A stretch of DNA of 64,000 nt from Escherichia coli (GTDB lineage: Bacteria; Pseudomonadota; Gammaproteobacteria; Enterobacterales; Enterobacteriaceae), in NCBI RefSeq assembly GCF_050920415.1, contig NZ_CP169309.1. One strand, written 5' to 3'. This document shows positions 2,868 to 5,095 of the stretch, piece after piece. The position numbers were made by a program, and so were the translations under genes. The notes beneath the pieces were generated by a model, which was not told where the DNA came from, searched no databases, and saw only the letters and a program-made list of their open reading frames with translations. Numbering within the stretch: the first letter of the stretch is position 1; every line of letters starts with the position of its first letter.

Positions 2868-2888
2868 TTTCTGCTTTCGTAATAAATC

Positions 2889-2920
2889 ACGGCCCAGCAT
2901 GCGAATGCCGGGCCGTTTTC
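2889..2920. terminator. Hairpin plus T-run between convergent grpE and yfjD, probable bidirectional terminator
   Basis: cggccc...gggccg stem 2891-2916 followed by tttt 2917-2920. Confidence 0.5.
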
Positions 2921-2921
2921 G

Positions 2922-4208
2922 TTACTCCGCCACACTCTCACGCAGCGGTTTCACAGGAAAAACTTTTACCTGCTTAATCATATTGTCCTGTACATCGAGA
3001 ATATCGATATCGTACTCGCCAATACGCACGCGAGTTCCTGCGACAGGAATCTCTTCCAGTGCCTCAAGAATGACGCCATTAACCGTTCGTGCATCATCTT
3101 CCGGTAGATGCCAGTTAAAGGCTTTGTTGATTTCCCGCACGTTGGCAGTGCCATCGATAATCACCGAACCGTCGTTTTGCGGCGTGACCTCTTCGGCGAG
3201 CGTTGGCGACATCGACGTGGTGAAATCACCAACAATCTCTTCGAGAATATCTTCGACCGTCACCAGACCCTGAATATCTCCATACTCGTTGACGACCAGG
3301 CCGACTTTCTTTTTGTTGCGCTGAAACTTCACCAGCTGCGTGCTGAGCGGCGTACCTTCCGGGACAAAATAGATTTCGTCCGCGGCGCGTAGCATGGTTT
3401 CTTTGGTGAACTCTTTTTTCTCCGACATCAACCGCCAGGCTTCACGCACACGCAGCATACTGATGGCGTCGTCCAGCGAGTCACGGTAGAGCACGATGCG
3501 TCCGTGAGGTGAGTGGGAGAGTTGGCGGAGAATCGATTTCCAGTCATCGTTGATATCAATACCGATAATTTCACTACGCGGCACCATGATGTCATCGACG
3601 GTCATCTTTTCCAGATCGAGTACCGACAGCAGCATATCCTGATTGCGACGGGAAATTTGTGAGCGCGATTCGTGCACGATAGTACGCAACTCTTCTTTGC
3701 TCAAAGAGCCGCTAACCACGATATCGGTTTTGATGCCCATCATGCGCATTAACATTCGGGTAATAGCATTCAGCAACCAGACCAGCGGCATCATCAAAAT
3801 TTGTAGCGGTGCCAGCAGAAAACTACTTGGATAGGCGACTTTTTCCGGGTACAGCGCGGCAATGGTTTTCGGCAATACTTCAGCAAAAACCAGTACGACA
3901 AAAGTTAGTACACCAGTCGCAATTGCCACGCCCGCATCCCCGTACAAACGCATCCCCACAATAGTACCGAGCGCGGAGGCAAGAATATTGACCAGGTTAT
4001 TGCCGATTAACACCAGGCTTATCAGGCGGTCTGGCTTACGCAGCAATTTTTCGACGCGTTTGGCCGAGCGATTACCCTGTTTCGCCATATGCCGCAGACG
4101 ATAGCGGTTGAGTGTCATCATTCCGGTTTCGGACCCGGAAAAATAGGCTGAAATGACCACCATGATGATCAGAATAATGATCAACGTAGTAGTAGAAATG
4201 TGTTCCAG
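2922..4208 (-). CDS. yfjD: CNNM/CorC-family inner membrane protein YfjD (DUF21-CBS-CorC_HlyC); CTG occupies the expected start codon position
   Basis: ORF track gives 2922-4184 (420 aa); frame stays open upstream to an SD aaggag followed 6 nt later by CTG at 4206-4208, giving 428 codons, the K-12 YfjD length as recalled. Confidence 0.85.
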   Translation of the reverse strand: MEHISTTTLIIILIIMVVISAYFSGSETGMMTLNRYRLRHMAKQGNRSAKRVEKLLRKPDRLISLVLIGNNLVNILASALGTIVGMRLYGDAGVAIATGVLTFVVLVFAEVLPKTIAALYPEKVAYPSSFLLAPLQILMMPLVWLLNAITRMLMRMMGIKTDIVVSGSLSKEELRTIVHESRSQISRRNQDMLLSVLDLEKMTVDDIMVPRSEIIGIDINDDWKSILRQLSHSPHGRIVLYRDSLDDAISMLRVREAWRLMSEKKEFTKETMLRAADEIYFVPEGTPLSTQLVKFQRNKKKVGLVVNEYGDIQGLVTVEDILEEIVGDFTTSMSPTLAEEVTPQNDGSVIIDGTANVREINKAFNWHLPEDDARTVNGVILEALEEIPVAGTRVRIGEYDIDILDVQDNMIKQVKVFPVKPLRESVAE

Positions 4209-4228
4209 GGGAAACTCCTTTTCTGGGT

Positions 4229-5095
4229 TTAGCTGATTAACTGCTGGACAATTCGGCTGCCGAAGTAGGCCAGTGTCAGAATGACTGCACCCGCAACGTT
4301 AAACCAGACGACGCGGCGTCCACGCCATCCTTCATGATAATGTCCCCACAGCAGCACAATATAGACAAACCACGCCACGATAGAGAGCACGGCCTTGTCG
4401 ATATTTTCCATGCTAAATAAGTTGTGCATGTAGAACAGGCCAGTGCAAAGAGTGAGCGTTAACAGCACCACGCCAATCTGCGTGATGTGGAACATTTTAC
4501 GCTCGATACTCATCAACGGCGGCATTTCCTGGTTAAACGCCAGCTTCTTGTTCTTCAGTTGGTAATCAATCCACGCCAGTTGTAATGCATACAGAGCGGC
4601 GATAATCAGCGTGGCATAGGAAAAGAGCGATAAGCCAATGTGCACCAGCATCCCAGGCGTTGCTTCCAGATGGGTGATGTATTCATTGGGCATAAAGGTT
4701 GCCAGCGCCAGGTTGATAAGCGCAAAGGCATAGACAATGGGTAGCAGTAACCAGCCACGATTGCGGGAAGCCACGATGGTCATTACCGTACAGATCATCA
4801 AACTGACCAGCGAACCAACGTTCAGTAAGCTGAGGTTTTGTCCGCTATCACCGTCGGGCAAGATGCGGGCTTCCAGAGCGATTGCGTGGCAGACCAGCGC
4901 GATGACCGCAGAAATAATAGCCATGCGCCGCCAGCCGCCGTTTTTTTGCAGCAGACCGGGAACAATCAGCGCAAGACTGACGGAGTAGGCGACAAGCGCG
5001 AGCAGAGCAAAAACGGGCATAGTAATGTCGACAGTTTGAGCAATAAGAAAGAGAAGCAGTATAGCGTCAGGTGAACGCTGCTCCAACCGTTGCAT
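4229..5095 (-). CDS. ypjD: Inner membrane protein YpjD (cytochrome c assembly-like family); true start probably the internal Met at 5020
   Basis: 288-aa ORF; polytopic hydrophobic protein ...MPVFALLALVAYSVSLALIVPGLLQKNGGWRRMAIISAVIALVCHAIALE... Confidence 0.85.
   Translation of the reverse strand: MQRLEQRSPDAILLLFLIAQTVDITMPVFALLALVAYSVSLALIVPGLLQKNGGWRRMAIISAVIALVCHAIALEARILPDGDSGQNLSLLNVGSLVSLMICTVMTIVASRNRGWLLLPIVYAFALINLALATFMPNEYITHLEATPGMLVHIGLSLFSYATLIIAALYALQLAWIDYQLKNKKLAFNQEMPPLMSIERKMFHITQIGVVLLTLTLCTGLFYMHNLFSMENIDKAVLSIVAWFVYIVLLWGHYHEGWRGRRVVWFNVAGAVILTLAYFGSRIVQQLIS

What the first reader, a model, noticed from the sequence alone, without database searches (positions are those of the whole stretch)
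4185..4215. CTG at the expected yfjD start codon
The yfjD frame stays open upstream of the ORF-track start to a well-spaced SD (aaggag, 6-nt spacer) followed by CTG-gaa-cac (minus strand, 4206-4208). Starting there gives 428 codons, the K-12 YfjD length as I recall it, which implies an ATG at this position in K-12. A CTG start would either be a rare, weak initiator or reflect a T-to-G change (plus strand, position 4208) that lowers yfjD expression. The next in-frame start codons are TTG at 4184 and ATG at 4163.
Basis: partly seen in the sequence, partly recalled or inferred. Interest (0 to 1): 0.3.

Follow-up and report, generated by a model that had tools for sequence, protein, structure and literature searches.

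The report
Known CTG start codon of yfjD
The CTG at the head of the yfjD (corB-type magnesium transporter) gene is the normal, conserved start codon, already annotated and experimentally confirmed in E. coli K-12, and not a mutation of an ATG in this strain.

Summary
On the minus strand an AAGGAG Shine-Dalgarno (4220-4215) and a 6-nt spacer precede CTG (4208-4206). Starting there gives 428 codons. The inference that K-12 has ATG here, and that this strain carries a T-to-G change, is wrong. K-12 MG1655's annotated yfjD CDS (b4461) starts at the identical CTG, and so do the four PGAP calls checked. At least 5421 of 5425 complete E. coli genomes carry CTG, and none carries ATG, GTG or TTG in that context. 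[quoted passage not shown] Comparative data agree. In 79 other Enterobacteriaceae species the homologous codon is CTG, TTG or GTG and never ATG. Codons 2-15 evolve like coding sequence, the region upstream does not, and most genera have an in-frame stop a few codons upstream. One small side result: CTG goes with a full AAGGAG SD (33 of 37 sequences), while GTG/TTG go with AAGGA-type SDs (43 of 43). This suggests the stronger SD compensates for the weak codon. Verdict: already known, low interest.

The parts
2922..4208 (-). yfjD (corB-type CNNM/CorB family transporter) CDS: 428 codons plus stop, starting at CTG
   Evidence: Translation. 428/428 identical to K-12 YfjD. Pfam CNNM + CBS + CorC_HlyC. 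NCBIfam equivalog NF008604 scores 866.7 bits against a cut-off of 475, and its 428-position profile aligns from residue 1.
4206..4208 (-). CTG initiation codon of yfjD
   Evidence: Same codon at the annotated CDS start in K-12 MG1655 and in four PGAP genomes. Confirmed by mutagenesis and fusions according to EcoGene 3.0, PMC3531124. The homologous codon is CTG/TTG/GTG in 79 species.
4215..4220 (-). Shine-Dalgarno AAGGAG, 6 nt upstream of the CTG
   Evidence: Sequence. Conserved as AAGGAG in 33 of 37 CTG-start sequences and as AAGGA-type in all 43 GTG/TTG-start species.
4209..4214 (-). 6-nt spacer TTTCCC (7 nt, TTTCCCC, in O157:H7-type genomes)
4205..4209 (-). CCTGG (Dcm recognition sequence) whose inner C is the first base of the start codon
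   Evidence: Sequence. 35 of 37 CTG-start sequences have CCTGG. Methylation itself was not tested.
4182..4184 (-). TTG at codon 9, the formerly annotated start and the start of the mechanical ORF; not the functional start
   Evidence: EcoGene: mutating it had no effect. It is TTG in only 8 of 80 sequences and CTN/TTA in the rest.
4161..4163 (-). ATG at codon 16, invariant Met inside TM helix 1. Gene callers that cannot use CTG start here.
   Evidence: ATG in 80 of 80. Logan/ENA protein calls begin MVVISAYF. The Pfam CNNM domain begins at residue 11.
4229..5020 (-). ypjD (cytochrome c assembly family protein), upstream gene. Its stop TAA (4231-4229) lies 20 nt before the CTG.
   Evidence: K-12 annotation, ORF list. 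No promoter-like site between the two genes. The same gene order occurs in distant relatives.
2889..2916 (-). Terminator-like hairpin just downstream of the yfjD stop
   Evidence: Consensus scan only: 12-pair stem with 8 G-C pairs.

Best explanation
This is the wild-type translation start of yfjD, the E. coli orthologue of Salmonella corB. It encodes a CNNM/CorB-family inner-membrane protein. Translation starts at a non-canonical CTG (CUG) codon that initiator fMet-tRNA decodes with a mismatch at the first position, so the protein begins Met-Glu-His-Ile-Ser. The ribosome is positioned by a full AAGGAG Shine-Dalgarno 6 nt upstream. It is probably also helped by ribosomes terminating at the ypjD stop 20 nt upstream (inferred). 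In reporter assays CUG initiates at only about 1-2% of the AUG level, so the codon keeps output of this membrane transporter low. The strong SD partly offsets that. The state is fixed in E. coli and shared with Salmonella, Enterobacter and other genera. It is not a lesion in this strain. Shown here: sequence identity with K-12, the annotation, conservation, and the coding signature from codon 2. Taken from the literature: the mutagenesis confirmation. Inferred: coupling to ypjD, and selection for low expression.
For: The K-12 MG1655 CDS b4461 (2748774..2750060, 1287 nt) begins at the identical CTG. PGAP annotates the same start in four other genomes. The protein is 428/428 identical to K-12's. 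[quoted passage not shown] E. coli census: CTG context in 5077 + 331 + 13 = 5421 of 5425 genomes, and ATG, GTG and TTG variants in 0. Across 79 Enterobacteriaceae species the homologous codon is CTG 36, TTG 30, GTG 13. Nucleotide diversity by codon position is 0.12/0.016/0.37 for codons 2-15 and 0.08/0.04/0.46 for codons 17-60, but flat at 0.65-0.69 upstream. In most genera an in-frame stop lies 2-12 codons upstream with no canonical start in between, and in E. coli 31 open codons contain no ATG, GTG or TTG. The NCBIfam equivalog profile (428 positions) aligns from residue 1. CUG strength of about 1-2% of AUG comes from Hecht et al., bioRxiv 10.1101/063800.
Against: The experimental confirmation is cited in EcoGene 3.0 as unpublished results (Dague and Rudd), so the primary data cannot be inspected. 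I found no mention of yfjD in the start-site mapping papers I could search: TetRP with its supplements, the Ribo-RET preprint, and the Salmonella riboproteogenomics paper. A minor contribution from the invariant ATG at codon 16 is not excluded. Coupling to ypjD and selection for low expression are inferences.
Confidence: 0.93

Rival explanations
1. Strain-specific point mutation (ATG to CTG, i.e. T to G at plus-strand 4208) or a sequencing error that weakens yfjD expression in this isolate.
For: None beyond the prior expectation that genes start with ATG.
Against: K-12 has the same CTG. At least 5421 of 5425 complete E. coli genomes have it, and 0 have ATG in this context. Salmonella, Enterobacter, Raoultella, Kosakonia and others share it.
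Confidence: 0.005
2. The CTG is not used. The real start is the TTG at codon 9 (old annotation) or the ATG at codon 16, and codons 1-8 or 1-15 are untranslated leader.
For: TTG and ATG are canonical starts. ATG16 is invariant in 80 of 80 sequences. Automatic gene callers pick ATG16. The mechanical ORF begins at TTG9.
Against: EcoGene reports that mutating TTG9 had no effect while the CTG was confirmed. Codon 9 is a non-start Leu codon (CTC, CTT, CTA or TTA) in 22 of 80 sequences, CTG in 50, and TTG in only 8. Codons 2-15 show third-position-dominated variation and near-invariant amino acids (E-H-I-S-T-T-T), so they are translated. The sequence before ATG16 (ttattctgatcatc) has no purine-rich SD. 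Starting at ATG16 would remove the first five residues of the Pfam CNNM domain, which begins at residue 11. Where the homologous codon is GTG or TTG, an in-frame stop 2-7 codons upstream leaves it as the only start.
Confidence: 0.04
3. Dual initiation: most protein starts at the CTG, but a functionally relevant shorter isoform starts at ATG16 (or TTG9), for example after MazF cleavage within codons 2-4 removes the SD and the CTG.
For: ATG16 is invariant. The MazF-regulon paper (PMC5001579) lists yfjD with a cleaved ACA 17 nt from 'the start'. That distance fits the ACAs at 4203-4199 measured from the old TTG start, not from the CTG.
Against: Met16 lies inside TM helix 1 and may be conserved for structural reasons. 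There is no SD before it. No experimental isoform is reported. Reading the MazF distance this way is my inference.
Confidence: 0.08
4. Initiation at the CTG depends mainly on re-initiation by ribosomes terminating at ypjD (translational coupling) rather than on de novo 30S binding.
For: The ypjD stop lies 20 nt upstream of the CTG and 8 nt upstream of the SD. No promoter-like site lies between the genes. The ypjD-like gene is immediately upstream in 5 of 8 distant relatives.
Against: Several CTG-start species (Raoultella, one C. amalonaticus, Intestinirhabdus) have different sequence upstream of the SD, without the nearby ypjD-type stop context, yet keep CTG plus AAGGAG. The strong conserved SD argues for standard SD-directed initiation. 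Coupling was not tested.
Confidence: 0.25

Closest known systems
E. coli K-12 yfjD (b4461) CTG start, EcoGene 3.0 'CTG start codon verification' (Zhou and Rudd, NAR 2013, PMC3531124)
   Same: Same gene, same codon, same SD and spacer, and an identical 428-aa protein. This is that feature in another strain.
   Different: Nothing in the start region. The window differs from K-12 only by a few substitutions in the ypjD 3' end (about 98% identity over 4100-4300 to K-12-derived strains).
[quoted passage not shown]
   Same: Non-canonical CUG initiation of a low-abundance protein.
   Different: Unrelated gene and context. I did not examine hda here.
Adaptive weak start codons, e.g. the lacI GTG start (Nat Microbiol 2024, PMC11445065); also infC AUU autoregulation (my own knowledge)
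   Same: A sub-optimal start codon conserved across strains. For lacI it was shown to set a low protein level that is beneficial.
   Different: For yfjD no fitness or regulatory role of the weak codon has been shown. CTG is roughly ten-fold weaker than GTG/TTG in reporter assays.
CNNM/CorB family Mg2+ transporters (Salmonella CorB Q8XFY3; archaeal CorB structure PMC8242095)
   Same: DUF21/CNNM transmembrane domain + CBS + CorC_HlyC architecture. E. coli yfjD P37908 is listed beside Salmonella CorB in the CNNM phylogeny methods.
   Different: The transport function of E. coli YfjD itself was not examined here.

Membership tests
Annotated, verified CTG start of E. coli yfjD | Orthologous locus: yfjD between ypjD and grpE, encoding the 428-aa protein | tested here: met
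   Gene order ypjD-yfjD-grpE in the window and in K-12. Protein 428/428 identical.
Annotated, verified CTG start of E. coli yfjD | Same codon and ribosome-binding context as the K-12 annotated start | tested here: met
   AAGGAG-TTTCCC-CTG-GAA-CAC is identical in the window and at K-12 CDS position 1.
Annotated, verified CTG start of E. coli yfjD | Translation actually initiates at the CTG | not testable with these tools
   Literature only: mutagenesis and fusions reported in PMC3531124 as unpublished results. Indirect support comes from the coding signature of codons 2-15 and the upstream in-frame stops in other genera.
CNNM/CorB (HlyC/CorC) transporter family | CNNM (DUF21) transmembrane domain, CBS domain(s), and a C-terminal CorC_HlyC domain | tested here: met
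   PF01595 8e-54 (residues 11-184), PF00571 9.9e-09, PF03471 2.3e-19, all above the gathering scores. NCBIfam NF008604 scores 866.7 bits against a cut-off of 475.
CNNM/CorB (HlyC/CorC) transporter family | Mg2+/Co2+ transport activity | not testable with these tools
The family assignment is by sequence only.
Start-codon loss-of-function mutation (ATG to CTG) in this strain | The reference or sister strains carry a canonical start codon at this position | tested here: not met
   0 genomes with ATG, GTG or TTG in this context. CTG in at least 5421 of 5425.

The most novel reading that the evidence does not exclude
The translation-initiation strength of yfjD/corB may be under stabilising selection across Enterobacteriaceae. 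ATG is excluded (0 of 80 sequences, despite at least 9 start-codon changes on the gene tree). The weakest codon, CTG, is tolerated almost only together with a full 6-nt AAGGAG SD, while GTG/TTG starts carry AAGGA-type SDs (5 nt in 40 of 43). Concordance is 76 of 80, with several co-occurring changes, and none of 20000 tree-based simulations reached it. The C of the CTG also sits in a CCTGG Dcm site, where deamination would give TTG, yet no E. coli genome has TTG. That is consistent with selection or Vsr repair holding the weak codon in place.
Probability: 0.4. Interest if true: 0.3.

Novelty: already known. Interest (0 to 1): 0.1.

Why it matters
For the scan this is a false alarm about a mutation: the strain's yfjD start is wild type. 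More generally it is a reminder of three things:
- A few E. coli genes really do start with CTG.
- ORF tracks and most automatic gene callers truncate such genes. Here they cut to Met16, which removes part of the first transmembrane helix.
- Recalled protein lengths do not imply an ATG.

The side observation, that start-codon weakness and SD strength co-vary across genera, is a small natural example of compensatory tuning of translation initiation. A few point mutants could test it.

Tried and rejected
1. ATG, GTG and TTG variants of the 33-mer were searched in 5426 E. coli genomes. None was found.

2. I looked for independent start-site mapping evidence for yfjD. It is not mentioned in the TetRP paper or its held supplements, the Ribo-RET preprint text, or the Salmonella riboproteogenomics paper and its supplements. 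That means no evidence either way, not evidence against.

3. RNA structure around the start (-40..+40) gave an MFE of -12.2 kcal/mol and z = -0.64. Nothing special, so no structure-based mechanism is proposed.

4. I considered an upstream start or a ypjD-yfjD fusion. It is rejected. There is no canonical start in the 31 open codons upstream in E. coli, other genera have in-frame stops 2-12 codons upstream, and there is no coding-type conservation upstream.

5. Is 'never ATG' a family-wide rule? It is not universal. Among 7 distant orthologues (≤49% identity) the homologous start is ATG in 4, TTG in 2 and GTG in 1. Within Enterobacteriaceae, the absence of ATG among the roughly 3 transversion events that produced GTG is not statistically compelling on its own.

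6. The protein searches could not supply orthologues of intermediate distance (50-85% identity, e.g. Yersinia or Serratia). The best-120 list is all ≥87% identical, and the 50% representative library jumps to ≤49%.

7. Four of the 5425 E. coli genomes that hold the locus were not assigned to any tested sequence variant, and one genome had no match at all.

Full report
**1. The observation.**
On the minus strand the window reads ...cag tta atc agc TAA accc ag aAAGGAG tttccc CTG gaa cac att tct act act acg TTG atc att att ctg atc atc ATG gtg.... The features sit as follows:
- ypjD stop TAA: 4231-4229
- AAGGAG: 4220-4215
- 6-nt spacer: 4214-4209
- CTG: 4208-4206
- TTG (codon 9): 4184-4182
- ATG (codon 16): 4163-4161

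The mechanical ORF list begins at the TTG (2922..4184, 420 aa). Translation from the CTG to the stop gives 428 codons. The frame is open for 31 codons upstream of the CTG and contains no ATG, GTG or TTG.

**2. Comparison with K-12 and other E. coli.**
The K-12 MG1655 RefSeq record annotates yfjD (b4461, YP_026171.3) at 2748774..2750060. That is 1287 nt, or 428 codons plus stop. The first three bases of that CDS are C-T-G, in the identical context aaggagtttcccCTGgaacac. PGAP-annotated genomes also start the CDS at this CTG: strain 2017-02-2CC, O157:H7 3384, ChlosBP-23-1 and SCU-176. The window's protein is 428/428 identical to K-12 YfjD.

I then ran a census with a 33-mer in which every 28-base seed word must cover the first base of the codon:
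- The CTG form is in 5077 of 5426 complete genomes.
- The ATG, GTG and TTG forms are in none.
- The O157:H7-type variant, with one extra C in the spacer and still CTG, is in 331.
- A divergent-lineage variant with synonymous changes downstream, still CTG, is in 13.

That accounts for 5421 of the 5425 genomes that hold the locus. So CTG is the fixed wild-type state. The idea that K-12 has ATG, and that this strain carries a T-to-G change at plus-strand 4208, is refuted. A sequencing error is equally excluded.

**3. Literature.**
EcoGene 3.0 (Zhou and Rudd, NAR 2013, PMC3531124) has a section titled 'CTG start codon verification'. [quoted passage not shown] Rudd, unpublished results). The feature is therefore already known, and it is in the reference annotation. 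I found no mention of yfjD in the start-site mapping papers I could search. The published experimental basis is thus that one statement.

**4. Independent comparative evidence.**
A scan of one genome per species returned 80 Enterobacteriaceae loci. At the homologous position the codon is CTG in 36 species, TTG in 30 and GTG in 13. It is never ATG and never a non-NTG codon. Several lines point to this codon as the start:
- Mean nucleotide diversity by codon position is 0.12/0.016/0.37 for codons 2-15. That is the same coding signature as codons 17-60 (0.08/0.04/0.46).
- The eight in-frame codons upstream of the SD are flat at 0.65-0.69.
- The amino acids E-H-I-S-T-T-T are almost invariant, while their third positions vary freely.
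- In most genera an in-frame stop lies 2-12 codons upstream of the NTG, with no canonical start in between. There the NTG is the only possible start.
- Codon 9 is TTG in only 8 of 80 sequences and CTN or TTA in the rest.
- ATG16 is invariant, but it has no SD and lies inside the first transmembrane helix. The Pfam CNNM domain begins at residue 11.
- The NCBIfam equivalog profile NF008604 is 428 positions long and aligns from residue 1.

Together these show that the protein begins at this codon across the family, and that E. coli's CTG is homologous to GTG and TTG starts elsewhere.

**5. What the gene is.**
YfjD has CNNM (DUF21) + CBS + CorC_HlyC domains. It is the E. coli counterpart of Salmonella CorB in the CNNM/CorB Mg2+ transporter family. 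It follows ypjD, with 20 nt between the ypjD stop and the CTG. No promoter-like site lies between the two genes, and a terminator-like hairpin follows the yfjD stop at 2916-2889. A ypjD-like gene (PF01578) sits directly upstream in 5 of 8 distant relatives examined.

**6. Mechanism.**
Initiator tRNA reads CUG with a first-position mismatch, so the N-terminal residue is fMet (established knowledge). In reporter assays CUG gives about 1-2% of AUG, and GUG/UUG give 10-100% (Hecht et al., bioRxiv 10.1101/063800). The full AAGGAG SD at 6-nt spacing positions the 30S subunit. Re-initiation by ribosomes terminating at ypjD may add to this (inferred). The initiation region has no unusual RNA structure (z = -0.64). 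The likely net effect is a low, set level of a membrane transporter.

**7. Side result.**
A full AAGGAG occurs in 33 of 37 CTG-start sequences, counting the window. It occurs in 0 of 43 GTG/TTG-start sequences, which have AAGGA-type SDs. On a neighbour-joining tree built from codons 17-420:
- CTG against non-CTG needs 8 parsimony changes.
- The SD state needs 8.
- The joint character needs only 11, so several changes fall on the same branches.
- None of 20000 simulations of an independent binary character, with 8, 12 or 16 changes on that tree, reached the observed 76 of 80 concordance.

This fits the idea that a stronger SD compensates for the weakest start codon. It rests on a single-gene NJ tree and a crude simulation. 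The two sites are only 7 nt apart, so they also travel together in recombination.

The absence of ATG is Enterobacteriaceae-wide in this sample but not universal. Seven distant orthologues (≤49% identity) start at the homologous position with ATG (4), TTG (2) and GTG (1).

**8. Verdict.**
The feature is already known and annotated, so interest is low. The only mildly new element is the covariation between start codon and SD across genera.

Noticed in passing
window 4205-4209 (minus strand): The first base of the CTG start codon is the inner C of a CCTGG site, the Dcm recognition sequence. 35 of 37 CTG-start sequences have CCTGG, and 9 of 30 TTG-start species have CTTGG, which is the deamination product. 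5-methylcytosine deamination would create a stronger TTG start, yet no E. coli genome shows TTG.
   Followed up: partly
window 4199-4203 (minus strand), codons 2-4 of yfjD: The MazF-regulon paper (PMC5001579, Table 1) lists yfjD with a cleaved ACA 17 nt from the start. No ACA lies within 17 nt upstream of the CTG. The two overlapping ACAs in gAACACAtt lie about 17 nt upstream of the old TTG start. The paper therefore probably used the older annotation, and the cleavage would fall inside the real ORF, removing the SD and the CTG. This is my inference.
   Followed up: partly
orthologue proteins P0002, P0006, P0007, P0089, P0121, P0123, P0135: Non-NCBI gene calls (Logan, ENA) for CTG-start species begin at Met16 (MVVISAYF...), giving 413-aa or odd-length proteins. 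NCBI PGAP proteins begin MEHISTT. This is a systematic N-terminal truncation in automatic calls, and it cuts into TM helix 1.
   Followed up: partly
L003 (O157:H7 strain 3384) and 331 E. coli genomes: An O157:H7-type allele has one extra C in the SD-to-start spacer (7 nt instead of 6) and keeps the CTG. Any effect on expression is unknown.
   Followed up: partly
L004 (strain ChlosBP-23-1), just upstream of the SD: A 9-nt duplication (TAACCCCAG) sits at the ypjD stop/intergenic junction. It leaves the SD and the CTG intact.
   Followed up: no
L002 4000-4604 (NZ_AP027764.1) against window 2868-2921: The genome that matches window 4100-4300 perfectly carries a frameshifted DUF6630 pseudogene between yfjD and grpE. 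The window and K-12 lack it: only about 54 nt separate yfjD and grpE.
   Followed up: no
window 4229-5095 (minus strand): The mechanical ypjD ORF is 288 aa from an upstream ATG. K-12 annotates 263 aa (792 nt), which starts at the internal Met (MPVFALL...) at window 5020.
   Followed up: no
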